A stretch of 63,600 nt of DNA from Euryarchaeota archaeon UBA486 (GTDB lineage: Archaea; Thermoplasmatota; Poseidoniia; Poseidoniales; Poseidoniaceae): contig DAET01000045.1 of NCBI GenBank assembly GCA_002497765.1, positions 36,326 through 99,925 on the forward strand, written 5' to 3'. The position numbers were made by a program, and so were the translations under genes. The first letter of the stretch is position 1. Each line of letters begins with the position of its first letter. Under the pieces are notes generated by a model that saw only the letters and a list, made by a program, of their open reading frames with translations, had not been told where the DNA came from and did no database searches. Below, in pieces: positions 15,674 to 53,000 of the stretch.

Positions 15674-15698
15674 GGGAGTGGTGTAAGGGTTGAGTCCC

Positions 15699-18600
15699 AT
15701 GCGTAGCGTACGAATTGTTTCTCCCCGGGCCACCGCGCTTTTGCTCGTGTTGATGTTTATTTTCGCCGACCTCTCGCTTCCGCAAACCATGGAAGGTTGG
15801 TCCGAACTTGAAGACGAACCCACGGTCCACCGCGCAGTTTCCTATCACGCCATTCACGCTGACACCTACATCACGGCTTCCGCCCCCACCAGCACGTACA
15901 ACACCTCAGCCACCGGGACACTGGCCGATGGACCCGCGCAGGAATCACGCTTGCTGTTGCGGTTCCCAATGAATTACACGGCAAGCGACACCATCCACGA
16001 GGCGAGCATCGATTTGGAGTGTACCACCGATGCCCTCGGCCCTACTGAATTGAAGGCCTACGTGGCTCACATGGACCGGTTTTGGAACGGTTCCTTTGCT
16101 TCTTGGGTGGCCTATGCCAGCAACCAACTCTGGTCCGAAGCCGGCGGTGAAGCTGGTGCTGACCGAGGTGACTGGGAACCTCCGGCCTTGCTTTCGGGCA
16201 ACGGGACTCTCACCCTCAACGTCACCTCCATTGCGCAACAAGCGGCTCGCTCCAATTCGGCCTACCTCTCTGTCATCGTCGCATCCTTCGGGGCCACCTA
16301 CGACTGTAGCATGTCTGAGGACACCGTGGCGGCGAACCGACCCGAGTTGACGTTGGATGTCAGTGCGGGTTCCGCAGCGACCAGCGGCGCAACGGTGTCG
16401 ACCGACCTTCCCGTGGACGAAGGCGCGCCGTGGATGGAATCTGACTTCCTGCTTCAACCCGTCACCACCCCTGCGTTGTCCTACGACATGAACAGCGGGA
16501 CGGACGTCGAGATTCAACTCAGCAACGCAGATGATTGGCGTTCTGCCACCGACGAGGCTTGGCATTTCTCCACGCTGTGGTCCACCTTCGCGTCCACCGG
16601 AACGTCCGGTGCCTACAACCTCCCATCCAACCTCGCACTGACCAACGGCACCGCCATGCACATGCGTGTACGAGCCGTGGACAGCAACGATCAGTGGGGC
16701 GCATGGGATTCAACCAGTTTCCTCTTGCCCAACCTGAACGTGGTCGATAACGGCGACGGCACGGCCACCATGACGCTCGGCCCCACCGACACTGGCCTGG
16801 AGCAGGATTTCCTGCAGGACACCTTCGTCAACGAAACCAGGAAGACCTACAATTATGGCGCTGATGCCTTGGTCGAATCCAGCATGACCTCCAGCAAGGA
16901 ACGTTTGATTCACTTCCGAACGTCACTCAACCAACTCGGCCTCCACGACAACCTCACCATCGTCAACGCTGAACTCAAACTCACCCGTTCCTCCTACAGC
17001 GGCGATCCGGTGGTTTCGGTCCACGGCATGGAAGAATCCGGTCTCTGGGCAGAGGAAGAAGTCACGTGGAACCAAATGTCAGCAGGTGGCGTACAGTGGT
17101 ACGACGGTGGCCGTTCAAACGGCACCGCTACCATGGCGTTGGCGGACGGCAACCAAACCAGCAACAGTTTCACGTTTGACCTTGACCACGCTGTTCAGAA
17201 CTACCTTGACGGTGGCGATGAAAACCCTCTCGATTTGATGGTCGCTGTGCGAGGTAAGTTCGAATCCTACACCAACAATGAAGGCATCTTTTTCCACTCG
17301 GCAGAAGCTGCCAATCCAAGCGATGCACCTTCGTTTTCCATTACGTACGAATGGGGCAGCGGGGCACCACCCGCCTCGGTGAACCTCACCGCACCTGCCG
17401 ATGGCCTCGCTGTGTGGAACAAAACCGGTGACAACCTCTCGGGCAACACCCAGCCCACGCTCAACTGGTCGCAACCCGCCACTGGCGATGACATCGTGTT
17501 CGAACTCGCCACGGACGAGGACTTCCGACTTCGACAGATGCGCGTTGACACCCGTGTTGACAACGACTTCAGCCCCACAGATGGCACGCTGGCCATGACC
17601 GGTTCCAAGACCCTTGAGGTGGGGAACATGTACTTCTGGCGCATGGCCACCGTCGACAGTGACAATCACTACGGTGAGTGGGTCAGTTCGAGTTTCCTCG
17701 TCTCCTCTCTGGAGAGCATCTGGCTGGGCGGCGACCGCTACGAATTCAACTTGAAGCACGGCAACGGCTCACAGGACAATCAATATCCCGAGTGCATGGA
17801 CACCTACATCGACAGCGCCGCACCCAACGATAATTACGACGGCGATTCGGAGATGACCATCGATTACAGCCCCTTCGGCGGTGAGATCACGGCCCTGTTG
17901 GGTTGCAACTTGGTGTCCAACCTCCTGCCCGACGGCTATGCGGTCGAGTCGGCTCACCTTCGCATGTCGTTGACTTCAACGACTTTTGGCACGCCGACCA
18001 TCGGTGTGTGGGAAAGCAATCAGAACGACTGGAACGCCGAGGACGCCACCTGGTCCAGCTACGATGGTTCTAACACGTGGGCCACGGCCGGCGCCAAGGG
18101 TGCAGAGCGCGGTTCGCTGCTCGACAGCGTTTCGGTTGGATCGTCGTTCTCCGAGGGCGATTCGGTCGAATGGAACGTCACCCTTGCGGTTCAGAACGCC
18201 ATGCGTGAAGACCGTCGAGTGGACTTCATCGCCGGCATGCTCGGCGCGGGGTCTGGCGGTGCACGAACAGCCTACTTCAGCACGGCCGAGGACTCGATGT
18301 CCAGCCGACCTGAACTCTCCTTTGTCTACGTCCCAGGCTCCGACGCTCTCCCGTCCAATCCTGCCCCGGCCCTGCCACTGAACGGCTCTTGGTCCATCGG
18401 TACAGGCGTTGATTTGACGCCCATCAGCCAGCCCGAACTGGATTGGAATTTCGGGGGGACCATGGCGCTCGCTGGCTACATCGTTCAACTGGACACACAA
18501 GCCGACTTTTCATCGGTGAACAGCCTCACCTACACGTCGTGGAACGATGCAGGATTTGACGTCACCAACACCTCTTTCACGCTCCAGTCCGACCTCGATG

Positions 18601-21600
18601 AAGGGAAGACGTGGTTCTGGCGTGTCCGCGCCGTTTCGGCCACCAACCAAATCGGCAACTGGTCCAACGTTTACCACTTCCAACTCCCCGACCTCAACAC
18701 CGTTGTCTACAACGCCACCAAGGCTTCGGTTGAACTCCGCCACCACGGCGCCCTGCCTCACCTCAGCACACCCCACTTGGTCGACACCTACGTCGTTGAG
18801 AACGGTTCAGGTTCCGATAACACCCAAGAGAATTCCACCACGCTGGTCGTGGGTGAAACCTCCACTGGCTACCAAGCGGCGGCGTTGATTCGTATTCCGC
18901 TCAGTGAAGTGCCCCAGCCGAGCGGTGCCCGTGTGACCGGTGCCGAGTTGAGCCTCTTTGCCGAATACGGGTCGGTTGAGGACGAACCCGTGGCCATCCG
19001 CCCCGTGCTGCAACCCTGGACCACCTCTGCCAACGCCACGACGTACGACGGCACCAATGCCTGGGCGCAGCGCGGTGGCCGTGCCATTGGGACGGACATC
19101 GGTGGCTACGTTGACCTCGTTGCCAGCGTCGAAGACGACTGGATGGACTTTGACGTGACGGAAGCCGTGCAGGCTGCGTTGGCCGCCGGACAGAACCACG
19201 TCTCGCTCATGGTTTACACCTCGAGCCAAACCACGGACGAAATCACGTTCACGTCGACCGAGGGAAGTGCCAGCGAACGACCGTATCTCACCTTGACCTG
19301 GGAAGACGGCACCGTGGCCACCCCGACCGTCAGTGGCGTAAACGCTGCGCCAACCAGCGGCTCCATCGTGTGGGACACCGCCTCCCACGCCCTTCAGGCG
19401 GACCGCTCGCCCACCTTCTCGTGGTCCTACAGCAGCTCGACTGCTGCCACAGGGTGGCGCGTGTTCATCCAGGCCGACGCCAGCAACGACATGGCCGGGC
19501 TCTACACCTACGACTCCCGAACCACGCCTGGCGCCTTTGACACCACCAACCTGACCTTCACACCCCCACAAGACCTGACCTTCGCTCAGGAAATTCGCTG
19601 GATGGTCCAACCGATGAACAACGGCATGCTGGGCCCACGAAGCACGTCGACCATCTTCTACCTCCCCAACGATGTCGGTGAGGAGATCAACAGCACGCAC
19701 GCTACGCTTTCCATCCAAGAGGGCTCCATCATCCCGTCCACCGCTTACCCAACGGTCACCTCCGACACCTACCTTGACACCGGCAACATCTACGCCAACC
19801 GTGGTTCCTCTTCCAGCCTCTTCGTTGGCCGAAGCCAAGTGTCCACAAACAACCCCAGCCTCCGTTCGATGTCACTGGTCAACATGGATTTCAGTTCGCT
19901 GCCCATGCCAGGAACCTACGAAGTGGTGAACGCCAGCCTTGAATTCACGGCCACCAACGTGTACCAGAATACCTTTGTCGCCGTCGGTGAGACCATCTCG
20001 GCGTGGACGGAATCCTCCGTGTACGCCTATCCAGCTGGAAACAATTCGACGTGGGCGTCCACGGGTGGGTACTCAGGGGATGATTTTGACATCCCATTCA
20101 ATCCAGCCCAGTGGGTCAACAGCACCGGAACTGCGGCCTTCAATGTCACGGCGCTTGTTCAGCACGCGCTGGCCAACAACATGGCTGAACTCAACGTTGT
20201 CCTCTTCCCTGTGGAGCGAGACAATGGCGTCAATGGACGTGTCCAGTTCGCTTCAAGTGAAGCCACCAACATTGACGTTCGTCCACGCCTCAACCTGACC
20301 TACCGGACCAGTGCCGCTTGGACGCCGTCGTCTCCAACCGGTCTCCTACCTGCGGATGGAAGCACCTTGTGGAACACTTCACAACCCCGTCCATCCGGTT
20401 TGAACGACAGCGATTTCTCGTGGACAACCTCGTACTCGAACGAAACTCAATTGGTCGCTTGTGCCAGCGATGATCCCCTCTTCCTGGATGAAGAGAAGAC
20501 AAACTGCTACAATTCAAACGATATTCTCGCAGGTCTTTACGACAACATAACGATCGACCTTGCCAACAATACGGTGAACAGTGCCGAATTGGGGAAGGGT
20601 GATTATTGGCAGTATTGGCGTATTCGTGCCGATCAGGGCGAACGAATCGGTGAATGGTCCTCGATCAACAAGTACCGCGTCCCCAACGACCAGGGCAGCG
20701 ACGACGGAAACGGGAATCACACCGTCAATTTGTCCCGAGGATCGATTTTCGAAACCACCGGCCTCTTGCCCATGGTTGAGGATGTTGAGATCGACTCCAA
20801 CGCTACGGTGAACCGTGGTTCCTCCAACACCATGGTGCTCGGCGTCAACAGTTTGGGCACAGGACAGAGCAGTATTTTGATGGAGTTTGACCTCAGTAAT
20901 ATCCCGTGGCCGTCCGCCATGACGCCAACGCAGATGATGCTCCGGATGTACCAGCCGGGCGTTTTGGGTACTTCGTCGACCACGATTGCGGCCTACCCGT
21001 GCAGCGGCTTCACGGAATCAAGCGTCGTCTGGGCTACGGCACCTACGTGCTCCACCAGTGAAATCACCCGATCGACCCTCACGTTGAACAACCCCTTCGG
21101 TTGGATGGAGTGGGATTTGACCAGCCTTGCGCAAGCCAACATTGCGAACGGTAACACCACGATGACGTTCAAGCTCGCCATGATTGGCAGCACCGGTTCG
21201 TCTCACAGCTTCTACTCCTCGGAATACTCCGACGCCACCTACCACCCGCATCTTGTCTTGGACTACGTGGACAACGTGAACGGCATCGTCCCACCTGCAC
21301 AACCCACCTTGACCTCCCCGGCTGACGGCCAGGTGCTCTACGCCGAGAACGACGGTTTGCTGACGCCATCGACCCAACCTGCTTTGACATGGACGCCCGT
21401 GAGCGGTGCGACGGGCTACATCGTCACCATCGCCAACGAGAGCGGTGTCTACAAGTTCCGCTCGTGGGAGGATTCAGAAATCACGAACACCACCTTCCGC
21501 TTCGAAGACAACCTCACCGAAGGTCAACTCTTCTCGTGGTGGGTGCAGGGCGTGAACCAGTCCATTCCAGGGCCCTCCTCTTCCCGCTGGAGCTTCGCCG

Positions 21601-24600
21601 TTGGTGCTCCCGACCACACTTACAACAACGACTACACCTACACTTACAGGTTCCAGACCGGCAGTGAAATCGCCGCCTTCGGTCACACCAACGTCCAGGA
21701 CACGGCCGTTTACAGCGAGTACGCCGACACCAATTTTGCCGGCGAATCGACCATCAGCGCGGGCAGCTACTGTGGAACACTTTGGGCCGACGAATGCCGA
21801 ATCAACATGGCGTTGAACGCCGCTCAGGTGCCGTTTGCTCAGTACCAACAGGTCCACTCGGCTTCGCTTGGGCTCTACGTCGAATCATGGACGTCCGTCC
21901 AGGGTGCGACGTCAGTCTCCTTCAACGTCCACCCCATCACCAACACGAACTGGGGTGCAGCCTCCGCCACCTGGAACGGTACCACCGCTGGTGGCACGTG
22001 GGGTGCACCCGGTATGCAAGCAGGTGTGGATTACGGCGATGCCGTGTCCACCACCGTCGTCAACGTTGACACCACGGGCTGGATTTGGTTTGATGTCAGT
22101 ACACCGGGCATGACCATCACCAGCGAACAAGCATGGGTGATCATTGCCACCCCGAACAACGGCTACGCCCACGCCTCGTTCTACTCCGGCTCCGCCACCA
22201 ACGTCAATTTCCGACCTCAAATGCAATTCAACACCACGAACATCACCAGCGTGGCCATCAGCCCGTCCGGTACGCCGACCACCGACGCAGACTCGGCGGT
22301 GAACTTCAATTCCGTGGCGTACGACCACCAAACCATGGTTCAGTCGCCGCCCATGACGTGGACGTCCTCCTCTGGCAGCATCGGCAGCAACGGATTGTTC
22401 ACGCCCAATACCGCTGGTGTAACGACCATCACGTCGTGCTTTGGCCTTGTGTGCGGTACTCAGAACATCACGGTCACGCCCGGCGCACCTGTTGACCTCA
22501 TCGTGACGCCGCTGACGGCGACCATCACGGCCGATGAAACGTTGACCATCAACGCTCAGATGGCTGACCAGCACGGCAATTTCCTCACGGGTGAAACGAT
22601 TGACATCACGCCGTCCAACGGGACCATGATGGGGACGACGTTCATGCCCTACACCGCTGGTTCGCACACCATCACGGTGTCTCACCCAGCCAGTGGTCAA
22701 CAGGTGTCTGTGGACGTGACCGTCCTTCCAGGTGCGCCATCCTCTCTCGTGATGAGCGGCTGTGGAGGCACCGTGCCTGCCGGTGTATGGTGCGACATTA
22801 CCCTTGAGCTGTACGACCAGTTCGGAAATGCACTCGCCCTCAGTGAAGCTGGCAACCTCACGTGGACCACCACCAACGGGAACTACTCGGAAATCAACGA
22901 TCAGTACTTCCCCGACCACGTTGGCGTTTGGACGTTGAGCGTGAGTTCGGTCTCCGGCGTAGCCGCTGAGATGAACATCACCGTCGGACATGGCGCCATT
23001 GACTTCCTCGAATTGAATGCTTCAGCGACCTCCATCACCGCCGACGACCGTGTCTACATCAACACCACTCGGGTTGACGTCCGAGGAAACCGATTGGCAG
23101 TGGTGCTCCCGGCGGACAACTGGACCAAGACCTCCGACGGGCAACTCACACCCGGTGCCCCAGCCATCTGGGACCCGGTGAAGACCGGTGCGAAGATCCT
23201 CGAGGCCCGGTACGAAACGACCCTGACGCAGATCACCATCGACGTGGCCAAGGGGAAGATTCAGACTCTGCGCATCGAAGTGGACGACGTCGACTCCACA
23301 TGGGCGCACTTCGATTTGACCGCCGATGACACGCTTGATGCCGATGTGTTTGCCATCGATGCCAAGGGCAACCAGTGGGCCATCGTCGTAAACTGGACCC
23401 TTGACCACCCAACGATGGGCGACTCCTCGAACTTCCTCGAGGTGCTCACGGGCGACACGACCACGTTCACGCCGTACTTCGCCAGCGAAGACCCCTACAC
23501 CATGACGGCCACCTACGACGACGGCACCACCGTTCATGCCGTGAGCATCAACATGACCGTTGACCACGGGTTCTTGCACACGGTGAGCATTGAAGGCACG
23601 GCCAACGACCCCGACCGAAGCACCGGTGCGGTGTTTGAACTGACCTCGGACTACGCCGTTGATTTCCTATCGGACCTCTACGACGCTGACAACAACCGCA
23701 TCACGTCCGACGGATTGACTTGGGTTGAGGTCAACGTTGCTACTGGCGATACCGAGGACATCACGACCCAACTGTTGCTGGACGGCATGCGATGGGAAGC
23801 CACCATGGTCGGCGAATGGCGTATTGAGGCCTACCAGGTCAGCGGTACTGGCTTCAACGTTAGCGACAGCATCACCATCACGGTGGTTCATGGCGAAGCC
23901 GTCACCGTTAGCGCCGACGTGTCTTTGAGCACGCCGACGGCCGGTGATCGTGTCGACATACAAGTGACCGGAACCGACGCGGATGGCAATCAGTTCCCAC
24001 AGAACGTTGAGTGGACCGAGAACGGTGAATCCGTCCCGACCCTGAGCGTCATCACGACCTCCGAGGGCACCTACACCTACGATGCGGAAGTCGCCGGCGT
24101 TCACACCCTGCAGTACGCTGTCGGTGGAGCGGTCTCCACGACCGAAATCACGGTCTCAGCTCAAAGCATCGTTGCACGACTTGAGGTGAACCTCTCTGCC
24201 GATACCGTCGAGCAGCTGGAGAGTTTGGACGTTAGCATCCGAGCCTTCGACGCCTTTGACAACGAAATCGACGTGCCCGGTAGTATTCAGGTTGAATCCA
24301 CGGGCCGGGGAACCGCCATGATGACCTCCTCCGACTTCTGGACCATCACGACCCTCGATGATGGCCCACAAACCATCACGGTGAGCGTTGGTGCGGTTCG
24401 TGTCAACGCGGAAATCAACGTCGAAGGCAACCTTGCCGGCTTCTTTGAGGCTGGCGGAACCCTCTACTACGTTGGTGCAGGTCTGCTTGCCATTGTTGCC
24501 GTGGTTCTCCTCGGCCTTCTCGTGATGTTCATGCGTGGTGGAAGCACCGATGATTGGGATGACGAGGATGAAGACGACGATGATGATGACGACGCTCCCT

Positions 24601-24854
24601 CCGGCCCGACGGGTCGTGCTCCCGGTCCGAGTGGTCCTGCGCCTGGTCCAAGCGGTCCTGCGCCTGGTCCAAGCGGTCCTGCGCCCGGCCCCACCGGTCC
24701 ACCTGCTGAAGAAGCCCCCGTTGAGGAGGCCGAAGAAGAAGCTGAGATCGAGACGAGTGTTGACGAAGACGGCACAGAATGGTGGGAAGACGAAGACGGT
24801 ACCTGGTGGTACCGCCTAGCCGGCGAGGAAGAGTGGCAAGAGTACAACGAATGA
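15699..24854 (+). CDS. Giant (3,051 aa from first ATG) type-I anchored surface protein B: 7 x [CBM-like beta-sandwich + FN3-like] super-repeats, Ig-like array, TM, acidic/Pro-rich/Trp-rich tail
   Basis: Track ORF 15690..24854 starts at TTG. The first ATG (15699) gives MRSVRIVSPRATALLLVLMFIFADLSLPQ, a signal peptide. It is one uninterrupted 9.1-kb frame rich in N-x-S/T sequons. TM GLLAIVAVVLLGLLVMFM lies at aa ~2923-2948 of the track ORF. The tail is DDWDDEDEDDDDDDD...(APGPSGP)n...DGTEWWEDEDGTWWYRLAGEEEWQEYNE. Confidence 0.85.
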   Translation: MRSVRIVSPRATALLLVLMFIFADLSLPQTMEGWSELEDEPTVHRAVSYHAIHADTYITASAPTSTYNTSATGTLADGPAQESRLLLRFPMNYTASDTIHEASIDLECTTDALGPTELKAYVAHMDRFWNGSFASWVAYASNQLWSEAGGEAGADRGDWEPPALLSGNGTLTLNVTSIAQQAARSNSAYLSVIVASFGATYDCSMSEDTVAANRPELTLDVSAGSAATSGATVSTDLPVDEGAPWMESDFLLQPVTTPALSYDMNSGTDVEIQLSNADDWRSATDEAWHFSTLWSTFASTGTSGAYNLPSNLALTNGTAMHMRVRAVDSNDQWGAWDSTSFLLPNLNVVDNGDGTATMTLGPTDTGLEQDFLQDTFVNETRKTYNYGADALVESSMTSSKERLIHFRTSLNQLGLHDNLTIVNAELKLTRSSYSGDPVVSVHGMEESGLWAEEEVTWNQMSAGGVQWYDGGRSNGTATMALADGNQTSNSFTFDLDHAVQNYLDGGDENPLDLMVAVRGKFESYTNNEGIFFHSAEAANPSDAPSFSITYEWGSGAPPASVNLTAPADGLAVWNKTGDNLSGNTQPTLNWSQPATGDDIVFELATDEDFRLRQMRVDTRVDNDFSPTDGTLAMTGSKTLEVGNMYFWRMATVDSDNHYGEWVSSSFLVSSLESIWLGGDRYEFNLKHGNGSQDNQYPECMDTYIDSAAPNDNYDGDSEMTIDYSPFGGEITALLGCNLVSNLLPDGYAVESAHLRMSLTSTTFGTPTIGVWESNQNDWNAEDATWSSYDGSNTWATAGAKGAERGSLLDSVSVGSSFSEGDSVEWNVTLAVQNAMREDRRVDFIAGMLGAGSGGARTAYFSTAEDSMSSRPELSFVYVPGSDALPSNPAPALPLNGSWSIGTGVDLTPISQPELDWNFGGTMALAGYIVQLDTQADFSSVNSLTYTSWNDAGFDVTNTSFTLQSDLDEGKTWFWRVRAVSATNQIGNWSNVYHFQLPDLNTVVYNATKASVELRHHGALPHLSTPHLVDTYVVENGSGSDNTQENSTTLVVGETSTGYQAAALIRIPLSEVPQPSGARVTGAELSLFAEYGSVEDEPVAIRPVLQPWTTSANATTYDGTNAWAQRGGRAIGTDIGGYVDLVASVEDDWMDFDVTEAVQAALAAGQNHVSLMVYTSSQTTDEITFTSTEGSASERPYLTLTWEDGTVATPTVSGVNAAPTSGSIVWDTASHALQADRSPTFSWSYSSSTAATGWRVFIQADASNDMAGLYTYDSRTTPGAFDTTNLTFTPPQDLTFAQEIRWMVQPMNNGMLGPRSTSTIFYLPNDVGEEINSTHATLSIQEGSIIPSTAYPTVTSDTYLDTGNIYANRGSSSSLFVGRSQVSTNNPSLRSMSLVNMDFSSLPMPGTYEVVNASLEFTATNVYQNTFVAVGETISAWTESSVYAYPAGNNSTWASTGGYSGDDFDIPFNPAQWVNSTGTAAFNVTALVQHALANNMAELNVVLFPVERDNGVNGRVQFASSEATNIDVRPRLNLTYRTSAAWTPSSPTGLLPADGSTLWNTSQPRPSGLNDSDFSWTTSYSNETQLVACASDDPLFLDEEKTNCYNSNDILAGLYDNITIDLANNTVNSAELGKGDYWQYWRIRADQGERIGEWSSINKYRVPNDQGSDDGNGNHTVNLSRGSIFETTGLLPMVEDVEIDSNATVNRGSSNTMVLGVNSLGTGQSSILMEFDLSNIPWPSAMTPTQMMLRMYQPGVLGTSSTTIAAYPCSGFTESSVVWATAPTCSTSEITRSTLTLNNPFGWMEWDLTSLAQANIANGNTTMTFKLAMIGSTGSSHSFYSSEYSDATYHPHLVLDYVDNVNGIVPPAQPTLTSPADGQVLYAENDGLLTPSTQPALTWTPVSGATGYIVTIANESGVYKFRSWEDSEITNTTFRFEDNLTEGQLFSWWVQGVNQSIPGPSSSRWSFAVGAPDHTYNNDYTYTYRFQTGSEIAAFGHTNVQDTAVYSEYADTNFAGESTISAGSYCGTLWADECRINMALNAAQVPFAQYQQVHSASLGLYVESWTSVQGATSVSFNVHPITNTNWGAASATWNGTTAGGTWGAPGMQAGVDYGDAVSTTVVNVDTTGWIWFDVSTPGMTITSEQAWVIIATPNNGYAHASFYSGSATNVNFRPQMQFNTTNITSVAISPSGTPTTDADSAVNFNSVAYDHQTMVQSPPMTWTSSSGSIGSNGLFTPNTAGVTTITSCFGLVCGTQNITVTPGAPVDLIVTPLTATITADETLTINAQMADQHGNFLTGETIDITPSNGTMMGTTFMPYTAGSHTITVSHPASGQQVSVDVTVLPGAPSSLVMSGCGGTVPAGVWCDITLELYDQFGNALALSEAGNLTWTTTNGNYSEINDQYFPDHVGVWTLSVSSVSGVAAEMNITVGHGAIDFLELNASATSITADDRVYINTTRVDVRGNRLAVVLPADNWTKTSDGQLTPGAPAIWDPVKTGAKILEARYETTLTQITIDVAKGKIQTLRIEVDDVDSTWAHFDLTADDTLDADVFAIDAKGNQWAIVVNWTLDHPTMGDSSNFLEVLTGDTTTFTPYFASEDPYTMTATYDDGTTVHAVSINMTVDHGFLHTVSIEGTANDPDRSTGAVFELTSDYAVDFLSDLYDADNNRITSDGLTWVEVNVATGDTEDITTQLLLDGMRWEATMVGEWRIEAYQVSGTGFNVSDSITITVVHGEAVTVSADVSLSTPTAGDRVDIQVTGTDADGNQFPQNVEWTENGESVPTLSVITTSEGTYTYDAEVAGVHTLQYAVGGAVSTTEITVSAQSIVARLEVNLSADTVEQLESLDVSIRAFDAFDNEIDVPGSIQVESTGRGTAMMTSSDFWTITTLDDGPQTITVSVGAVRVNAEINVEGNLAGFFEAGGTLYYVGAGLLAIVAVVLLGLLVMFMRGGSTDDWDDEDEDDDDDDDAPSGPTGRAPGPSGPAPGPSGPAPGPSGPAPGPTGPPAEEAPVEEAEEEAEIETSVDEDGTEWWEDEDGTWWYRLAGEEEWQEYNE
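15858..22235 (+). repeat. Seven diverged ~325-aa (~980-bp) protein super-repeats inside the giant gene
   Basis: Recurring DTY-type openings are at track-ORF aa 57 (ADTYITAS), 377 (DTFVNE), 704 (DTYIDS), 1032 (DTYVVE), 1359 (DTYLDT), ~1698 (DVEIDS) and 2004 (DTAVYS). Each is followed by N-x-G...L-x-VG...[LI]-x-x-FDLS/IPLS...A-x-L-x-L and closes with (R)P-x-L-x-[LF]-x-Y (RPELTLDV, RPELSFVY, RPYLTLTW, RPRLNLTY, HPHLVLDY, RPQMQFN). FN3-like modules lie between them and end MHMRVRAV..WGAW, YFWRMATV..YGEW, WFWRVRAV..IGNW, IRWMVQPM, YWRIRADQ..IGEW, FSWWVQGV. Confidence 0.7.
22245..24425 (+). repeat. Array of roughly eight Ig-like (bacterial Big-type) domains in the giant protein
   Basis: ~85-95-aa units recur with the pattern ITVTPGAPVDLIVTP..ATITADETLTINAQMADQHGN.L, VTVLPGAPSSLVMSG, ITVGHGAIDFLELNA..TSITADDRVYINTTRVDVRGN, TVVHGEAVTVSADVSL..AGDRVDIQVTGTDADGN, TVSAQSIVARLEVNLSADTVEQLESLDVSIRAFDAFDN. 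Confidence 0.6.
24618..24701 (+). repeat. Four in-frame 21-bp tandem repeats encoding (APGPSGP)n in the cytoplasmic tail of the giant protein
   Basis: gctcccggtccgagtggtcct / gcgcctggtccaagcggtcct / gcgcctggtccaagcggtcct / gcgcccggccccaccggtcca. The two central units are identical. Confidence 0.85.
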
Positions 24855-24866: not shown

Positions 24867-27461
24867 GTGACCTTTCCAAGGGCTTGCGTTGCGTTGGTTG
24901 CGCTGGTCCTGTTGGGAACCCTGTCAGTTCATGCACCGGAGATGCTCGAAGAAGCCCCGCCTGCGATGCGCTCGGGAACGCCCGACCGTGTGATCATCGA
25001 TTCACCACCGACTTCGGTTTCAGCCGACGAGGTGGTCGTGTTTGAAGCCATCATCTACGACCCTGTCAACAATGTCTTGGCGGGCGACATTCACTGGTCA
25101 GCGAGCAACGGCAGCATTTCCGATGACGGGTTGTTTTACCCGTGGTCGGCCGGTTTGGTGGAAATCACCGCCGAACACAACGGGCTCGTAGCCCGCCACA
25201 ACATCAGTGTCGAAGCCGGTGTTCCCACCTCCATTGAAATTACTCGGTTGAGCCTGGGGGTGCTCGAGCCCACGACCCTCACAGCGGATGTACTGGACGG
25301 TCGTGGCAATCGGATGCCCGGTCCAGCCACCATGGTTTGGGACATTGATGGTGTCTATGCAGGGCTCGGCGAGCCCACGTGGACGGCAGAAGAACTCGGC
25401 GATGTCTCTGCACGCGTACGATTCAATCAACTGGAGGCACGAGCCACCATCACCGTAACGGCAGGTGCGCCGTACGCCTTTGTGTTCGAACAACCGCTGA
25501 TGGTTCGTGCTGGCACTCTTCAGAGCATCACGCCCAGTTTGGTTGACATCAACGGCTATGAAATGCCCCTTTCGGCGGTTGGGCCTTTGGCGTGGTTTGC
25601 CGAGAACGGTTCGTTCAACGCCCAGGGAGAATACCTGGCAACCAACACTGGGAAATGGCTGATCACCGTTTCCTCAGGCAACATCACGGGCAGCGGTACG
25701 CTGCAGGTGATTCCCGGTGATGCCGTAGCGTCCACGCTCAAGGTGGCGAATGAACCCGAGACCTACATGGCGGGCGAGTCGTATGAATTGGTCTTTGAAC
25801 GCCGAGATGTGAACGGCTACATCGGATTTGTTTCCCCTTCCATTCACGCGCTTTCGGCTTCATCGGGCGGGCTTTCCGTTGATGACGAAGGACGGGTGTT
25901 TTGGAACCCATCCGGCATTGGTCAAGCCACCATCACGGGTATGGACGGGACGGTTTTAGCCATGCTCGAGCTTGATGTCATGCATGGTCGGGCGATCGAC
26001 CTTGCCTTCCAGCTTGAACCACGGCAACCCTCTGCCGGAGAGCAGGTTGTTTTGCAGCTGGTCGCTGAGGATGTCAAGGGCAACCGATGGGTGGTGGACG
26101 GGAACATCACCATGGGCACGGGTGCCGCCGATGAACTCACGGACGATCTGACATATTCGCTTATTCAGGCTCAGTCCGCCCGCTCGTGGAAGTTTGACGG
26201 GAGCTGGTTTGACAACACCACGGGCGCCATGTTCACGGCCGACGTGTCGTTTGATGTTCAACCCGGTCGATTGGCCTTTATCGAACTCGAGGGGGAAGGA
26301 AGCCGCGTGCCTGCAGACGGTTCGCTGGACCTTAACCCGATGTTCTTCGATGCATACGGCAACGAACTCGAACCCATTGCCCTGAATTGGAGTTTGAACG
26401 GCAACGATATCACGCTCGAGATGCTGCTGAACGACGGCCGATGGACCGCAACCAGCGTTGGCGGGCATGAACTCCGTGTCAACGCTGATGGTGTCTTCGC
26501 TACCGTAAGGTTGACCGTTGTGGCCGGCAACGCCCACGGCCTCATCACCGATGCCGATGAAGGCCTTGTGGTGAATGCTGGACTACCCCACGACCTGTTC
26601 ATTCAGGTGGTTGATGTCCACGGCAACATTGCGGAATCGACCTCAGTCACGTCCTCACTCAACACATCGCTGGGTGAGCTTGAGGCCTCACCAACCGGTC
26701 TTGGCTACTGGCAGTTCACTGGAAAGCAGGTCGGCACCTACGAACTCGTGCTGGAGGACGAGGGAGCAGTCCACACCATCCCGTTGACCATCGAAGCCGG
26801 CTCGCCCGTTCGGATTCAGGCGACCATGAGTCGAGATGGCATTGCTGAAGGCGACGTGGTGTTGCTCAATGCGTTTGCCACCGACGTCTACGGCAACACG
26901 CTGAGCATTCCAAAGGCGAACACCAGCGTTTCCTGTACTGCAGGCCCGGCCTCGTTTGTCACCAACGGAACATGGGAAGTCGACGTGGAAAACGGCGGTA
27001 CTGACCGCTCGTGCACGGTGCGTTGGAGCGGTTTGCTTGCTCAAACGTTCTACGATGTCGATGAAGTCTTGTTGGGGGGCGCTGTTGGGTCAACGAATAC
27101 GGCCATGACCATGGCAGCGGTGCTTCTCTTCCTGTTGCTTGCCGTCCTGGTCACCCTGACCCGAAAGGCTGCAGAGGTTTCGAAAGAAGGCTGGGTGGAA
27201 GACGCCTTTGATGATGAGGACGACGACGATGAGGAGGATGAGATGCTTGGTAGTGCCGTTCAAGACGACACGCCGCTCCACGAGCGGCATGGGCTGACAC
27301 TGGAATCCATGAAAGCTCTGGCGGAAGAGGCCGGTAAGGTGGGGGTCATGCAGGCCACACCGTCCACCACGCAAGGACAAACCGGCTGGTATGTTGATGT
27401 CTCCGAGGAATTGCAATACTGGGAAGTCACGCCTGACGGCGAGTGGATACGGCATGAATGA
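24867..27461 (+). CDS. Type-I anchored surface protein C: signal peptide, Ig-like domain array, TM, acidic tail with Trp/Tyr-rich C-terminus
   Basis: 864 aa. GTG start 12 nt after the giant gene stop, preceded by GAGGAGG (24854-24860). Signal ACVALVALVLLGTLSVHA. Repeated Ig-like units (ISVEAGVPTSIEITR, ITVTAGAPYAFVFEQ, LQVIPGDAVASTLKV, LDVMHGRAIDLAFQL, VRLTVVAGNAHGLI, LTIEAGSPVRIQATM). TM AAVLLFLLLAVLVTL. Tail DDEDDDDEEDE...TGWYVDVSEELQYWEVTPDGEWIRHE. Confidence 0.8.
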   Translation: MTFPRACVALVALVLLGTLSVHAPEMLEEAPPAMRSGTPDRVIIDSPPTSVSADEVVVFEAIIYDPVNNVLAGDIHWSASNGSISDDGLFYPWSAGLVEITAEHNGLVARHNISVEAGVPTSIEITRLSLGVLEPTTLTADVLDGRGNRMPGPATMVWDIDGVYAGLGEPTWTAEELGDVSARVRFNQLEARATITVTAGAPYAFVFEQPLMVRAGTLQSITPSLVDINGYEMPLSAVGPLAWFAENGSFNAQGEYLATNTGKWLITVSSGNITGSGTLQVIPGDAVASTLKVANEPETYMAGESYELVFERRDVNGYIGFVSPSIHALSASSGGLSVDDEGRVFWNPSGIGQATITGMDGTVLAMLELDVMHGRAIDLAFQLEPRQPSAGEQVVLQLVAEDVKGNRWVVDGNITMGTGAADELTDDLTYSLIQAQSARSWKFDGSWFDNTTGAMFTADVSFDVQPGRLAFIELEGEGSRVPADGSLDLNPMFFDAYGNELEPIALNWSLNGNDITLEMLLNDGRWTATSVGGHELRVNADGVFATVRLTVVAGNAHGLITDADEGLVVNAGLPHDLFIQVVDVHGNIAESTSVTSSLNTSLGELEASPTGLGYWQFTGKQVGTYELVLEDEGAVHTIPLTIEAGSPVRIQATMSRDGIAEGDVVLLNAFATDVYGNTLSIPKANTSVSCTAGPASFVTNGTWEVDVENGGTDRSCTVRWSGLLAQTFYDVDEVLLGGAVGSTNTAMTMAAVLLFLLLAVLVTLTRKAAEVSKEGWVEDAFDDEDDDDEEDEMLGSAVQDDTPLHERHGLTLESMKALAEEAGKVGVMQATPSTTQGQTGWYVDVSEELQYWEVTPDGEWIRHE

Positions 27462-49176: not shown

Positions 49177-50025
49177 TCACAATCGCTGGGCGACCAGCAG
49201 AAACGCCGTGTGGCCAAACGGACCGTTCACGGGCCGCATACCGCCTTTTGATGCGCGGCCCCATTCGCGTTCCATCAGCTCACCGGCCCATTCCACGGTC
49301 AAACCGGCTGCTTCACAGGCTTCCCACGCCCGCTCGAGTTGGGACGATACCGGACAATAGCAGGCCAAGCGGCCGCCAGGAAGCAGCAGTGCTGCGGATG
49401 CTTCAATGGCGGGGGGATGGTCGGGAAGGTCAAGGATGATGGCGTGAAACCCTTCGACGAGTTCGCCCGCCTCTGCAGCCCGCTCTTCTAACGTGCCCTC
49501 GAGGTGGTGATGCGCGGGATGTTGACTCCACGAAGCGCTGGCACGACGCAGGTTTTCCAGCGCCACATCAGCATGTTCTGCACGGGGTTCAACGGTCACG
49601 TGGACGCCGTCCTTTCCGAGGACACGCTGGATGTAGAGTGAAAGGCCACCGCTTCCGATGCCCGCTTCGAGCACCGCATCGTTGGGGCCAAGGCCGAGTT
49701 TGGTGAGGAAAAATCCGGCGTCCTTGCTGCCAATGGTTTGGGCGCGTCGAACCATGCCTTTGCTGAGTTCCGGAAGGCGAACAGGCATCCGTTTCAGTTC
49801 TTTTTGGCCGATGATGACGGACTGGCCGATGGTGATGTCGTGAAGTGTTTGGCGTGGGTTAAACACGCCGAGACCCTTGATCTTCTGTTGCTGATCAACC
49901 AGTTCAACGACGTAGGTTTTCCCGTTTTCCTCGATGAGGACAGCCCATTCTGTTGAGGTCACAACTACGCCCACTGGGCGCTTCCTGTTAAGGTTCTCCA
50001 CGCTGGTATTATCGCTGGACTGCAA
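49177..50025 (-). CDS. trmI: tRNA (adenine-N1)-methyltransferase (m1A57/58), TrmI/Gcd14 family
   Basis: 282 aa. N-terminal beta domain, then SAM motif I VLEAGIGSGGLSLYI, GKDGVHVTVEPRAEHADVALENL and AIILDLPDHP. The architecture is typical of archaeal TrmI. Confidence 0.8.
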   Translation of the reverse strand: MQSSDNTSVENLNRKRPVGVVVTSTEWAVLIEENGKTYVVELVDQQQKIKGLGVFNPRQTLHDITIGQSVIIGQKELKRMPVRLPELSKGMVRRAQTIGSKDAGFFLTKLGLGPNDAVLEAGIGSGGLSLYIQRVLGKDGVHVTVEPRAEHADVALENLRRASASWSQHPAHHHLEGTLEERAAEAGELVEGFHAIILDLPDHPPAIEASAALLLPGGRLACYCPVSSQLERAWEACEAAGLTVEWAGELMEREWGRASKGGMRPVNGPFGHTAFLLVAQRL

Positions 50026-50064
50026 GGACTTCGCAAGATGGTGGTTTAGACATCAGTCCGTTTG

Positions 50065-50074
50065 TTTCATATAC
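50065..50074 (+). promoter_or_regulatory. TATA-like box (TTTCATATAC) 22-31 nt upstream of the surface protein F ATG (leaderless arrangement)
   Basis: tttgTTTCATATACtctctgtttcgtgctattaacATG, in the 70-nt divergent trmI / protein F intergenic region, one of the few AT-rich patches in the window. Confidence 0.35.
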
Positions 50075-50095
50075 TCTCTGTTTCGTGCTATTAAC

Positions 50096-53000
50096 ATGAA
50101 CACCGCTGTGCGTAGCCTCGCCTTTGCCATCGTCGCCATCTTCCTCGGAAGCCTTGCTTCCGGAATGATGGGTGAACTCTACCAAACACCACTTGAACTC
50201 GAAGACGAGCCGGTGGTTCAACAGAACTCCCAAGCCACCAGTCCCGGGCACGTTGTCTTCGGTCAGTACATCTCCTCGGACAACTGCGGCCACTGCTCCA
50301 AGACGGGCGGTGGTTCGGATGCTCATCACTCCATCAAGCAGAACCACCCCGATGAGTATGTCTACGTCACCTACATGTCGGCCTCCTTCGGCCAAACCAA
50401 CACCGCTCGTGCCGGCAACGTCGCTCCTTACAACTGGGCGTGGACCACCGGCGGTGCACCGGACGCCTACTTCGGCGACCGAACCGACAAGCGCCAGAGC
50501 GGCGCCAACAGCCAGTACACCACCTACGATAGCCTGTTCTCAAGCGGCGGCGGCATGCACAGCACCGTCAACGATTACGGTATGTCGGCAGCGATCTCAC
50601 AAAACGGAGGCTCCTACGACATCAGCATCTCTTACAAGTACAAGGGCTCGGGAACCCCAGCCTCCAACATGAAACTCTATGCCGCCCTTGTGGACAAGGA
50701 CTGCACGGGTTATTCCTATTCCTCGGGTATCCCCCACGGCTACAACTGCTGGATGGCTTGGTTGACCACCGGTGATACCTACAAGTCGAAGAGCGGTGGC
50801 ACTGGAACCGCCTTCCACAGCGTTTCCGTTTCCTCAACTGAAGCCACAGAGTCGTGGACCTCTGTTCCCACCTCCGTCGTTCCTGGCGGCATCAACAAAG
50901 CCATTGTCGTTGCTGCTTTGATGAGCGGCAACCAAGTTTCCGTTGGCGGCAGCAGCCCCCACGTCTACCACGCCATCGACTCAACGATGGGCCCCAAGAT
51001 GGACATCGGTGTGTCGGGCATGATGGTCACCAACGACCAAGGCACCCCCTCCTACGTCCGTGGCGACACAGTGACACTGCAGGCGGATGTGAAGAACACC
51101 GGCGACTTGGACTACACCAACGGTGGCTCGCTCGAATTCTATTACAAGAACGGCGCCACCACCACGGCGATTGACACCGTTTCCATCCCGACCTTGAACG
51201 TGGCTCCTGGCTCTCCGTTCCTCACGGGCACGGCCACGTTCGACACCTCCAACTTGCCAAGCAACGTTTGGTCCACCAACTTCGGTGCTCGCCTCGTCGG
51301 CGTCACCGGCGACATGACCGGGAGCAACAACGTGGCTGAAATCGGTGTGGACCACGACCGTGTCCCGCTCGTGAAAACCCCGCAGGTGATCGGCTCTGAT
51401 GTCGTTCAGCGTGGGGACTATGTCACCGTTCTTGCCAAGGGTGATGCCAACGACAATGTCGACACCATCGACAGCATGAATTTCGAGGTTGAAGTTTCTG
51501 CTGCTGGTGCCAACCTGTGGGACGGAAGCATCGTCTCCGGCGGTAACATCCTCTACCGGGACACGGCCCAGGAAGGACGAGAATACATCGTCACGCCCAG
51601 CATGGCCATGAGCGCCGGTGACTACGACGTGCGCGTTCGCACCGTTGACAGCCGCGGCCAAACCAGCGACTGGACGGTCTCCGAAGACATGTTCGAACTG
51701 GCTAACGGTCGCCCCATCATCGTGGCTGATCCCGTGCCGACCGTCATGTGCGACTTGAGCACCAAGGTCAGCATGGACGGCCACGTGAGCGACCCGGAAA
51801 CGCCTTTGGGCGACCTCATCATCTCGTCGACCAGCGATAACTTCGTCGCATGGCACCCAGCCACCGAAGAAATCGAGGTTCTCTTCCCGTACGACAACGG
51901 TTGCCCGCTCGGCCAGAAGGGCATCGAAATCCGTGTGGATGACGGTGGCGACTACTCCGACAGCGGCGAACTTCCCTACGGTACGCTCCTGTTCAATGTC
52001 ATTGAGAACGGTCAGCCTCGCTGGGGCGGTCTGCCCATTCAGATGGTCGACGAAGGCAGCAGCGGCATCCTTTCCCTCGCCGAGTACCTCTCCGACACCG
52101 ACGACACCGGTCAACCCGTTGACATCTCGACGCTCTCGCTTCAGATCATGGACAATTCAAACCCCGAACTCGTCACCGTTGAGCTCCGAGGCAACACCCT
52201 CGGCTACGAAACGGTTGACGACGACGTCAACGGCGAAACGGTGGTCACCCTCCGTGCCAGCGACGGTGAGCAATACTCCGACCAAACGGTCACCATCCGC
52301 ATCAACCCCATCAACGACGCACCTCGCCTCGACATGACGGACATCGAGGAATTCTCCTTGAAGACGAACCGCCAGAAGGTCATCAACCTCAACAGCCGCT
52401 TGACGGACGTTGACAGCCCGCAGGGCACATACTGGGTCAACAACCCACAGTCGACCGAGACAGGCTCTGCTCGTTTGGTCACCGGGGACTTGATCTTGAA
52501 CTTCGAGGAAGTTGGCATCCACACAGTCACGATTTCCACGACCGACGGCTACGCCACGAACAGCTACGAAATCACCGTCAACGTCTTTGACGCCCTCCCA
52601 TTCTACATCTCGAAGATCGATGATGGCTCCGGCCACCTCTATGTTGACATGGTGAACTACACCTACGAGACCCAAACGCCAACCGCATCGTTTGCCTTGA
52701 CCGATGGTGCGCCATCCTTCACTGTCATCTCGGTGACCTGGTCCCTGTGCAACGAGTTGTCCGGTACCTGCGACGGTTTCTGGGAATACGATTTGGACAT
52801 GTCCCGATCCAGCACCGGCTGGATCCAAGAGATGAACATCCCATCTTCCTACGGTGATGGTGGCTTTGCTCGCACCAACGGTATGCGGGACATGGATTAC
52901 ATCGGCCTCACCGTCCGTGCCGTTGATGACCTCGGCCAGGAGTACAAGACCAGCGACACCACGAAGTGGATGACGACCGAGGAACTTCCAACGCCTACTG

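What the first reader, a model, noticed from the sequence alone, without database searches (positions are those of the whole stretch)
24534..24851. Modular cytoplasmic tail on the giant protein, with the C-terminal module shared by neighbouring surface proteins
After the TM the tail reads RGGSTDDWDDEDEDDDDDDD, then (APGPSGP)x4, then EEAPVEEAEEEAEIETSVDE, then DGTEWWEDEDGTWWYRLAGEEEWQEYNE-stop. Protein C ends ...TGWYVDVSEELQYWEVTPDGEWIRHE-stop. Protein F ends ...LPAGWTMEQWNYYGQQYLDQLNQQ-stop. All three place a G-W, an aromatic pair and a final [EQ]-[WY] within the last ~25 residues. The spacing resembles the three-stranded WW-type meander (LPxGW ... YY ... W). B and F also share the membrane-exit sequence LLGL..MFMRGG, including an identical 16-nt DNA string, tgatgttcatgcgtgg (about 24520-24535 and 53287-53302). 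This implies a homologous anchor module on otherwise unrelated ectodomains. The dense acidic tract immediately inside the membrane is unusual for a stop-transfer region. I hypothesise that the terminal module is a docking or sorting signal for an unidentified cytoplasmic partner that positions, sorts or turns over these giant proteins. To my knowledge no such system has been described in archaea.
Basis: partly seen in the sequence, partly recalled or inferred. Interest (0 to 1): 0.75.

Follow-up and report, generated by a model that had tools for sequence, protein, structure and literature searches.

The report
Cytoplasmic end-modules on archaeal surface proteins
The last 34 residues of a giant surface protein of a marine Poseidonia archaeon are an undescribed, tryptophan-rich mini-domain that many unrelated surface proteins of this uncultured order carry at their exact inner end; this suggests an unknown link between the cell's coat and its interior, but the two neighbouring proteins carry different end-modules, not the same one.

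Summary
The sequences are as described. Window = Poseidonia (Marine Group II). Protein B (15690-24854) is a type-I giant with this tail: TM, acidic tract, a run of about five seven-residue Gly/Pro-rich units (three exact APGPSGP), acidic linker, then ETSVDEDGTEWWEDEDGTWWYRLAGEEEWQEYNE-stop.

That last module is a real domain family. A 34-position profile found 143 clusters among 1.84 billion representatives (2 are repeat junk). In nearly all, it sits at the exact C-terminus. Carriers include:
- CBM96 giants, FG-GAP/VCBS proteins and TSP3/propeller proteins, each with a TM 79-282 residues upstream and an acidic juxtamembrane tract;
- a few soluble proteins;
- a TM2-domain protein, found by a separate local scan.

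All named members are Poseidoniales. AlphaFold predicts a four-stranded beta-meander (pLDDT 92). Pfam, PDB and literature searches gave no match. It is not a detectable WW domain.

The "one shared module" claim fails. The family HMM scores B at 60 bits, C at -1.2 and F at 0.9. C's end is a separate conserved module kept across genera. F's end (PPLPPxGLPxGWTMEQWxYYGQQYL) is a second widespread end-motif. The shared 16-mer is an isolated micro-identity.

Best reading: cytoplasmic docking or assembly modules on flexible acidic tethers, with the partner unknown. This is a new domain family; its function is inferred.

The parts
15690..24854 (+). Gene B: 3054-aa type-I surface giant. It has a signal-peptide-like N-terminus, five CBM96 modules, an Ig-like stalk, one C-terminal TM helix and a 106-aa tail.
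   Evidence: The ectodomain has 59 N-x-S/T sequons and the tail has none.
24477..24533 (+). Single transmembrane helix AGLLAIVAVVLLGLLVMFM.
   Evidence: Hydropathy 2.91. It is followed by R.
24534..24593 (+). Juxtamembrane acidic/aromatic tract RGGSTDDWDDEDEDDDDDDD.
   Evidence: The same type of tract occurs in 49 TM-anchored carriers, with a median of 12 acidic residues in the first 25.
24594..24704 (+). Run of about five seven-residue Gly/Pro-rich units (three exact APGPSGP). Four to six units in the Poseidonia orthologues read.
   Evidence: TRF reports a 21-nt period with 4.2 copies. The repeat is absent from distant giants such as P0097 and P0158.
24705..24749 (+). Second acidic linker AEEAPVEEAEEEAEI. 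This is the least conserved part of the tail.
   Evidence: Pairwise identity is 0.57-0.69 here, against 0.82 for the whole protein.
24750..24851 (+). B-type end-module ETSVDEDGTEWWEDEDGTWWYRLAGEEEWQEYNE. It is a 34-aa Trp-rich beta-meander at the exact C-terminus.
   Evidence: Profile search found 143 clusters at E<=1e-3. Local HMM score is 60 bits. AlphaFold pLDDT is 92 with four strands. D5, G8, W11, D14, W19 and W29 are invariant.
24867..27461 (+). Gene C: 864-aa type-I protein. Its whole ectodomain is paralogous to B's membrane-proximal stalk. The B-C gene pair is conserved across genera.
   Evidence: BLASTP gives 25% identity over 703 aa, E 3e-36. Synteny is seen in L001-L014 and L022/L023.
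27261..27458 (+). C-type conserved tail: helix TPLHERHGLTLESMKALAEEAGK plus the beta-rich end GVMQATPSTTQGQTGWYVDVSEELQYWEVTPDGEWIRHE.
   Evidence: Near-invariant in orthologues. Synonymous to non-synonymous codon differences are 1803:214. It is kept in a 44%-GC lineage. AlphaFold pLDDT is 67, with a helix plus four strands.
49934..53590 (+). Gene F: 1218-aa type-I protein with a cadherin/Big_9-like ectodomain. TM at 53237-53296.
53495..53587 (+). F-type end-motif PPLPPGGLPAGWTMEQWNYYGQQYLDQLNQQ.
   Evidence: 117 of 120 hits carry G[LI]PxGW[TS]x[ED]QW, in all but three of them ending 9-17 residues before the C-terminus, behind different anchors.
24523..24538 (+). 16-nt string TGATGTTCATGCGTGG, encoding (L)MFMRG. 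It is identical to 53286-53301.
   Evidence: The identity does not extend further.
53286..53301 (+). Second copy of the 16-nt string, at F's membrane exit.

Best explanation
What is shown:
- The last 34 residues of B are a small domain that AlphaFold predicts to fold on its own. It is a four-stranded, Trp-rich, very acidic beta-meander. Consensus: GISVDEDGTEWWEDEDGVWWYREPGEEDWAEYEE.
- Poseidoniales place it at the free C-terminus of a long, flexible, strongly acidic cytoplasmic tether.
- It is attached to many unrelated surface proteins, one multi-pass membrane protein and a few soluble proteins.
- C and F carry other conserved end-modules of their own.

What is inferred:
- The module is a protein-protein docking or assembly unit. 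It would couple the carriers to a common cytoplasmic partner, or to each other.
- The type-I surface proteins of this organism would then follow a 'tail code': TM, basic stop, acidic tether, then one of several terminal modules.
- The partner and the consequence (positioning, clustering or turnover) are unknown.
For: It is a real family and always terminal:
- 143 clusters at E<=1e-3 among 1.84e9 representatives, of which 2 are junk.
- In most of them exactly 12 residues follow the WW[YF]R core before the stop.
- The last residue is D or E in 87%.

It is promiscuous:
- Carriers include CBM96/DNRLRE giants, FG-GAP/VCBS proteins of about 1400 aa, and WD40+TSP3 and SBBP+TSP3 proteins.
- A TM2-domain protein carries a divergent copy, E 4e-4 among 4422 C-termini.

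It is cytoplasmic:
- The ectodomain has a signal-peptide-like start and 59 sequons, against 0 in the tail.
- R/K residues follow the TM.
- The same module ends soluble proteins with no hydrophobic segment: a TPR protein and the 'MARKKGGFGRF' family of about 240 aa.

It folds: AlphaFold gives pLDDT 92 from only 8 sequences.

Selection:
- The module is conserved while the linkers drift.
- It occurs in both MGIIa and MGIIb.

The tail modules are distinct and stably kept:
- The B-C gene pair keeps its two different ends in a distant 44%-GC lineage.
- The F-type motif is a separate widespread family.
Against: - No partner has been identified and nothing here tests binding.
- The structure comes from a shallow alignment of a 34-residue peptide.
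- Foldseek and PDB matches are all non-significant.
- Most clusters are unnamed metagenome fragments, so the restriction to Poseidoniales rests on the named minority.
- B's module is only moderately more conserved than B as a whole: rank 696 of 3025 windows, and 736 synonymous against 423 non-synonymous codon differences.
Confidence: 0.55

Rival explanations
1. Homotypic assembly. The module behaves like a single beta-propeller blade, and several tails (plus the soluble carriers) close into a ring. This would cluster the surface proteins under the membrane.
For: - The best Foldseek matches are single blades of Pizza/PknD NHL propellers (TM-score on the query 0.75, rmsd 1.3 A).
- PDB profile searches independently pick propeller repeats: 3hxj PQQ-like at E 0.015 and Pizza6 'VAVDSAGTVWVTD' against 'ISVDEDGTEWWED'.
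- From the strand register, Trp residues should lie on both faces of the sheet (inference).
- Soluble 'tail-only' carriers exist.
Against: - All of these matches are non-significant (E about 1).
- None of the 141 clusters has the module in tandem, as real blade families usually do.
- Net charge is strongly negative, which disfavours self-association without counter-ions.
- No multimer model could be run.
Confidence: 0.15
2. A WW-like reader of proline-rich motifs. The aromatic sheet binds polyproline-II segments in the same set of tails, such as B's own PGPSGP repeats or the PPLPP that precedes the F-type motif. This would build a multivalent sub-membrane network.
For: - Its size and aromatic pattern (W..G.WW[YF]R..W..[YWF]) resemble WW domains.
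- Pro-rich tracts sit in the same tails: (APGPSGP)n in B and a near-invariant PPLPP in the F-type.
- B-type and F-type tails co-occur in this window.
Against: - No Pfam WW hit.
- hhalign against a WW alignment gives 0.2% probability.
- No WW domain appears among the 50 best Foldseek matches shown.
- W-to-W spacing is 18 rather than 20-22, and there is no terminal Pro.
- Most carriers (the 1400-aa family, P0097, P0158) have no Pro-rich tract in their tails.
Confidence: 0.12
3. A C-terminal recognition tag for turnover or quality control. A protease or unfoldase (Lon-N-type reader, proteasome/PAN, JAMM system) would read it to remove or process the giant proteins.
For: - The strict position at the free C-terminus, with a terminal D/E, is typical of C-terminal tags.
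- A Lon substrate-binding-domain protein is encoded in the window.
- The soluble carrier is paired divergently with a JAMM/MPN+ protease in both MGIIa and MGIIb.
Against: - Tags are usually short and unstructured, whereas this one is predicted to fold confidently.
- The adjacency to JAMM concerns only the soluble family.
- No cleavage motif such as GG is visible.
Confidence: 0.1
4. A non-functional compositional by-product of an acidic, Trp-tolerant proteome (low-complexity drift).
For: The tails are compositionally extreme, with net charge -33. Linker segments do drift.
Against: - Six columns are invariant and four more nearly so, in a 49-sequence alignment and in 100 distinct 34-residue modules.
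- The distance to the stop codon is fixed.
- 141 clusters are significant against 1.84e9 proteins.
- C's module shows synonymous to non-synonymous differences of 1803:214.
Confidence: 0.02

Closest known systems
WW domain (PF00397)
   Same: About 35 residues, an all-beta antiparallel meander stabilised by conserved Trp, an aromatic pair on the middle strand, and used as a portable protein-interaction module.
   Different: - No HMM or profile-profile similarity.
- Four predicted strands instead of three.
- Trp spacing of 18.
- No C-terminal Pro.
- Strictly C-terminal position.
- Extremely acidic.
- Ligand unknown.
Single blades of NHL/PQQ-type beta-propellers (Pizza designs, PknD sensor domain, 3hxj)
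   Same: Four-stranded meander with a V-D-x-x-G-x-x-W-x-x-D strand-turn-strand signature. These are the best structural and sequence matches found.
   Different: - The matches are not significant.
- The module is 34 aa.
- It is never repeated in tandem.
- It is cytoplasmic and terminal.
SHOCT (PF09851) and similar short promiscuous C-terminal domains
   Same: About 30 residues, predominantly C-terminal, combined with many unrelated architectures, function unknown; the authors' test of an oligomerisation role did not support it (PMC3581485).
   Different: - SHOCT is alpha-helical and mainly bacterial.
- There is no sequence relation.
- The module here is beta and is so far found only in Poseidoniales.
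C-terminal sorting signals (PGF-CTERM/archaeosortase, LPXTG/sortase, PEP-CTERM)
   Same: A conserved signal at the extreme C-terminus of many unrelated secreted or surface proteins within one lineage.
   Different: - Those signals consist of a motif, a TM helix and a few basic residues, and are cleaved.
- Here the TM is followed by 79-282 acidic residues and a folded domain.
- The module also ends soluble proteins.
Cytoplasmic-tail docking motifs of eukaryotic adhesion receptors (integrin beta NPxY-talin, PDZ-binding C-termini)
   Same: This is a 'works like' analogy only. Single-pass adhesins with FG-GAP, cadherin-like or TSP3 ectodomains carry short cytoplasmic tails with a conserved docking element.
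   Different: There is no homology. Archaeal partners are unknown. The comparison rests on inference.
GYF domain (considered for the F-type motif)
   Same: The spacing M-x-x-W-x-x-x-G-aromatic in GWTMEQWNYYG recalls GPF....M..W...GYF (recalled from memory).
   Different: - No Pfam hit.
- The motif is about 20 residues.
- It lacks the preceding beta-hairpin of GYF.

Membership tests
WW domain (PF00397) | Match to the family HMM or profile | tested here: not met
   No Pfam hit at E<=10 for the three tails or for 49 module variants. hhalign against a WW alignment written from memory gives 0.2% probability for B-type and 0.3% for C-type.
WW domain (PF00397) | Two signature Trp residues 20-22 apart, with a Pro three residues after the second Trp | tested here: not met
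   In B-type, W11 to W29 is 18 residues, and the position of the Pro is taken by Y/W/F. C has a W-to-W spacing of 20 but no Pro. F has only 5 residues between its two Trp.
WW domain (PF00397) | Three-stranded antiparallel sheet | tested here: inconclusive
   AlphaFold gives four strands (2-4, 10-13, 19-22, 30-31) at pLDDT 92. No WW domain appears among the 50 best Foldseek matches shown.
WW domain (PF00397) | Binds proline-rich ligands | not testable with these tools
   No binding assay or multimer prediction was available.
Beta-propeller blade (NHL/PQQ type) | Four-stranded antiparallel meander | tested here: met
   AlphaFold model. Blade matches have a TM-score on the query of 0.75 and rmsd 1.3 A.
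Beta-propeller blade (NHL/PQQ type) | Significant sequence match to a repeat family | tested here: inconclusive
   3hxj at E 0.015 with the shallow profile. Pizza6 at E 1.6 with the 49-sequence profile. No Pfam NHL or PQQ hit.
Beta-propeller blade (NHL/PQQ type) | Four to eight tandem copies closing a ring in one chain | tested here: not met
   One copy per protein in all 141 genuine clusters. The only multi-stretch hits are repeat junk (P0033, P0133) or a fragment.
Archaeosortase/sortase-type C-terminal sorting signal | Signature motif, then a TM helix, then a short basic C-terminus at the very end of the protein | tested here: not met
   The TM is followed by 79-282 residues (median 117) with median net charge -33.
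SHOCT (PF09851) | HMM match and a two-helix structure | tested here: not met
   No Pfam hit. The predicted structure is all-beta.
B-type end-module family (defined here) | C's and F's termini score as members | tested here: not met
   HMM scores are B 60.3, TM2 tail 19.4, F 0.9 and C -1.2 bits. The distant C orthologue scores 2.1 bits. hhalign of B against C gives 2%.
GYF domain (for the F-type motif) | HMM match and a beta-beta-alpha-beta-beta fold of about 60 aa | tested here: not met
   No Pfam hit. The conserved block is only about 25 residues.

The most novel reading that the evidence does not exclude
Poseidoniales have an order-specific, so far undescribed system that couples the surface coat to the cytoplasm. 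In it, a 'tail code' of terminal modules sits on acidic tethers: the B-type Trp-rich meander, the C-type module and the F-type PPLPP-GWTMEQW motif. These modules would assemble with each other or with a sub-membrane scaffold, for example as blade-like rings or through WW-like binding of Pro-rich segments. The assembly would organise the giant adhesins of these archaea, functionally like integrin-talin coupling in eukaryotes. The soluble 'MARKKGGFGRF' carrier and its conserved JAMM protease neighbour could be regulatory parts of the system.
Probability: 0.15. Interest if true: 0.85.

Novelty: new variant of a known kind. Interest (0 to 1): 0.58.

Why it matters
Marine Group II archaea are among the most abundant archaea in the surface ocean, and none has been cultured. 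Their giant surface proteins are thought to mediate attachment to particles and algae.

A conserved module restricted to this order, sitting at the inner end of most of these proteins, is the first concrete handle on how the coat is organised from inside the cell. It yields:
- three searchable profiles (B-, C- and F-type) for counting carriers in MAGs;
- a short list of testable partners;
- a very small, Trp-rich beta fold that may interest protein designers.

This is not a single shared module but several distinct end-modules that have each been kept over long evolutionary time.

Tried and rejected
- **Word-indexed homologue searches with short tails** returned only short orthologous fragments and no new contexts. 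The full HMMER scan was needed.
- **Pfam** on whole proteins, tails and 49 module variants gave no tail hit.
- **PDB sequence and Foldseek searches** gave only non-significant propeller-blade or unrelated matches.
- **WW membership** was rejected.
- **B-C module homology** was not demonstrable. This holds even though C's ectodomain is paralogous to B's stalk, and even with a distant C orthologue as an intermediate. Only W[WY]xDxDG[TV] is shared, scoring 2.1 bits.
- **The 'homologous anchor' idea** was rejected, because DNA and protein identity stop at the 16-mer / MFMRGG.
- **P0033 and P0133** (multi-stretch hits) are translated repeat junk.
- **The window itself** has no soluble carrier, JAMM neighbour or second B-type or F-type copy.
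- **Literature searches** for the motif strings and for tail modules in Poseidoniales found nothing.
Full report
**Origin and gene models**

The window is 58% GC. Protein C (24867-27461) finds 14 loci in GTDB genomes at 70-97% identity. Nearly all are titled Poseidonia, Poseidoniaceae or Poseidoniales. The window therefore comes from a Marine Group IIa archaeon.

- B is 15690-24854 (3054 aa). It has a signal-peptide-like N-terminus, five CBM96 matches and Ig-like repeats.
- C is 864 aa.
- F is 49934-53590 (1218 aa) and is cadherin/Big_9-like.

**Checking the observation**

| Segment | Coordinates | Sequence |
|---|---|---|
| TM helix | 24477-24533 | AGLLAIVAVVLLGLLVMFM |
| Acidic tract | 24534-24593 | RGGSTDDWDDEDEDDDDDDD |
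| Gly/Pro repeat | 24594-24704 | APSGPTGR-(APGPSGP)x3-APGPTGPP; 21-nt period, 4.2 copies |
| Acidic linker | 24705-24749 | AEEAPVEEAEEEAEI |
| End-module | 24750-24851 | ETSVDEDGTEWWEDEDGTWWYRLAGEEEWQEYNE, then stop |

C and F end as quoted. The 16-mer TGATGTTCATGCGTGG is at 24523-24538 and 53286-53301, with 0.01 expected by chance.

**Topology**

- B's ectodomain has 59 N-x-S/T sequons in 2929 residues. Its tail has none.
- The tails of B and C have net charges of -33 and -21.
- One to three basic residues follow the TM.
- The strongest evidence is independent of topology rules. The same end-module terminates proteins with no hydrophobic segment at all: a 631-aa TPR protein and an acidic family of about 240 aa that begins MARKKGGFGRF.

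The module therefore works in the cytoplasm.

**B's end is a real domain family**

In 14 congeneric loci the module is kept as VDEDGTEWWED[DE][DE]G[TA]W[WY][YF]R..GEEEW[QH]EY.E, while the linkers vary. The Gly/Pro repeat varies between 4 and 6 units.

A 34-position profile was scanned with full HMMER against 1.84 billion cluster representatives:
- 143 proteins scored at E<=1e-3. Two of them, P0033 and P0133, are translated repeat junk.
- In almost every remaining hit the match ends at the last residue.
- In most of them the core G.EW...WW[YF]R is followed by exactly 12 residues and the stop.
- D5, G8, W11, D14, W19 and W29 are invariant. E10, G17, W20 and R22 are nearly so. Position 32 is W, Y or F. 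The last residue is D or E in 87%.

Carriers of the module:
- CBM96/'DNRLRE' giants of about 3000 aa, in several genera.
- A family of FG-GAP/VCBS proteins of about 1400 aa.
- WD40+TSP3 and SBBP+TSP3 proteins.
- A PKD/FG-GAP protein on another lineage's contig, broken there by a frameshift.

Of 54 clusters of at least 200 aa, 49 have a TM helix 79-282 residues upstream (median 117). They have a median of 12 acidic residues among the first 25 after the membrane, and a median tail charge of -33. A fiftieth has a weaker TM. Four are soluble.

A local scan of 4422 ORF C-termini also found a divergent copy, DDHGFEWLQYNGENYYRQVGSNAEWTKY-stop. It sits on a multi-pass TM2-domain protein (18 bits, E 4e-4).

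Every member that carries a name is from Poseidoniales, covering both Poseidoniaceae and Thalassarchaeaceae. Many clusters are unnamed.

**Structure and relation to known families**

AlphaFold2, given only eight sequences, predicts a four-stranded antiparallel meander with strands at 2-4, 10-13, 19-22 and 30-31, at pLDDT 92.

- Foldseek against the PDB gives no significant hit. The best matches are single blades of Pizza and PknD NHL-type propellers (TM-score on the query 0.75, rmsd 1.3 A, E about 1). No WW domain is among the 50 best matches shown.
- Profile searches of PDB sequences pick a PQQ-like propeller (3hxj, E 0.015) and Pizza6 (VAVDSAGTVWVTD against ISVDEDGTEWWED, E 1.6). These are consistent leads, not proof.
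- Pfam has no match for the tails or for 49 module variants.
- hhalign against a WW alignment gives 0.2% probability.
- The Trp spacing is 18 and there is no terminal Pro.

The module resembles WW domains in size and design, but it is not a detectable member.

Full-text searches for the motif strings and for tail modules in Poseidoniales found nothing. The main genomic survey of the order discusses adhesion, thrombospondin and flotillin genes; a search of its text for 'C-terminal' and 'transmembrane' found no occurrence (PMC6461757).

**C and F do not carry the same module**

| Sequence scored against the 127-sequence family HMM | Bits |
|---|---|
| B tail | 60.3 |
| TM2-domain protein tail | 19.4 |
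| F tail | 0.9 |
| C tail | -1.2 |

Among 898 window ORFs only B is hit. hhalign of B against C gives 2%.

C's end is conserved in its own right:
- GVMQATPST.QG.TGWYVDVSEELQYWEVTP.GEWIRHE is essentially invariant in all orthologues, while the acidic tract before it is hypervariable.
- It ranks 10th of 835 windows for conservation.
- Synonymous to non-synonymous codon differences are 1803:214.

AlphaFold gives a helix plus four strands, but only at pLDDT 67. Foldseek finds nothing.

C's whole ectodomain is collinear with, and paralogous to, B's membrane-proximal stalk (25% identity over 703 aa, E 3e-36). The B-C gene pair is also conserved in a distant 44%-GC lineage. There C ends GVMQATPDTEQGKSGWYVDTDGTLLEFEVTADGQWIKVE. 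That variant shares W[WY]xDxDG[TV] with the B-type, but it still scores only 2.1 bits. A very old common origin of the B and C ends is therefore possible but not demonstrable. What is demonstrable is that the two distinct ends have been kept side by side across genera.

F's end is a second widespread family:
- 117 of 120 hits carry aGPPLPpxGLPxGW[TS]MEQWx[YH]YG[QH]QYL[DE], with the G..QW core ending 9-17 residues before the stop in all but three.
- It occurs behind several different anchors and linkers.
- It has no Gly-turn or hairpin pattern, and I infer it is helical after the Pro-rich lead-in. Its structure could not be predicted.

The shared membrane exit MFMRGG is conserved in close orthologues of both B and F. 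However, identity stops at the 16-mer. More distant relatives have other R-G/S-G exits. It is not a homologous anchor module.

**Other tails in the window**

- 45082-49101 ends in an acidic tract plus a CxxC...CxxC zinc ribbon.
- 40437-43436 (GDSL lipase + TSP3) ends ...DAWDALDAGWSDSN.
- 4260-6995 has a short plain tail.

The general design is: TM, basic stop, acidic tether, then one of several end-modules.

**Mechanism**

Shown: a conserved, confidently predicted, strictly C-terminal cytoplasmic mini-domain on an acidic tether, combined with many architectures.

Inferred: it docks carriers to a common cytoplasmic partner or to each other.

Three more specific versions cannot be separated here:
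- homotypic, blade-like assembly;
- WW-like reading of the Pro-rich segments present in the same tails;
- a terminal tag for turnover.

One contextual hint is that the soluble 'MARKKGGFGRF' carrier is divergently paired with a JAMM/MPN+ protein. That protein has an exact HxHx7Sx2D motif and a Prok-JAB match at E 2.9e-4. The pairing holds in both MGIIa and MGIIb, although the other neighbours differ.

**Verdict**

The claims of a single module shared by B, C and F, of WW membership, and of a homologous anchor are not supported. This is a new domain family of a familiar general kind, and its function is unproven.

Noticed in passing
L017-L019 7182-7952 (-) and L020/L021 7169-7939 (-): A 256-aa protein with an exact JAMM/MPN+ motif (HTHPNAPALPSGAD; Prok-JAB E 2.9e-4) is divergently paired with the soluble B-type-module carrier. 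The pairing holds in both MGIIa and MGIIb (53% and 41% identity), while the other neighbours differ.
   Followed up: partly
L017-L019 5633-7147 (-): A TM2-domain multi-pass membrane protein ends in a divergent B-type module (DDHGFEWLQYNGENYYRQVGSNAEWTKY-stop; 18-19 bits). It lies next to the JAMM gene and the soluble carrier.
   Followed up: partly
window 24867-27101 versus 22290-24476: C's entire ectodomain is a collinear paralogue of B's membrane-proximal Ig-like stalk (25% identity over 703 aa, E 3e-36). The B-C gene pair is conserved in a 44%-GC lineage (L022/L023).
   Followed up: yes
window 45082-49101 (+), last ~50 codons: Another type-I surface protein has an acidic juxtamembrane tract followed by a cytoplasmic CxxC...CxxC zinc ribbon (Zn_ribbon_FGT1_2, E 1.7e-4) as its end-module.
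   Followed up: partly
window 40437-43436 (+), C-terminus: An anchored GDSL-lipase/TSP3 protein ends in a Pro-rich tail and ...DDAGLADAWDALDAGWSDSN, a further W-acidic end of unknown conservation.
   Followed up: no
P0355, P0363, P0368 (F-type hits): In P0355 and P0368 the GWTMEQW motif is internal and is followed by about 40 residues ending in LLDDFDL or LLDDLDF; P0363 lacks the motif but ends in a similar LLGDLDL. This looks like a different acidic-hydrophobic C-terminal motif.
   Followed up: no
Tails of P0058, P0114, P0118, P0075, P0090, P0116 and soluble P0085/P0091: The linkers of the FG-GAP family and of the soluble carriers share a second short motif (K/S-x-LDEL-K/R-x-x-G, or PLPVGxxLDEFED). 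The whole tail, not only the end-module, may therefore be a unit.
   Followed up: no
window 35497-36615 (-), C-terminus: An Asparaginase_II-family enzyme carries a conserved W-acidic C-terminal extension, TVPTWDEWDPDQDRWNYEPDVI. It is not a B-type module (-1.9 bits).
   Followed up: partly
L006 (NZEQ01000011.1): A contig with the Poseidonia B-C locus (77% identity to C) is deposited under a 'Verrucomicrobiales bacterium' MAG. This is probably a binning error.
   Followed up: no
L003, L013, L015: The giant gene is broken into several ORFs by frameshifts in these assemblies. Short 'proteins' in the databases (for example P0009 and P0010) are really C-terminal fragments of giants.
   Followed up: partly
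P0160, N-terminus: The soluble TPR carrier also begins with SPDGKWLWTGSEWIPAPP, a second small Trp-rich motif at the opposite end of the protein.
   Followed up: no
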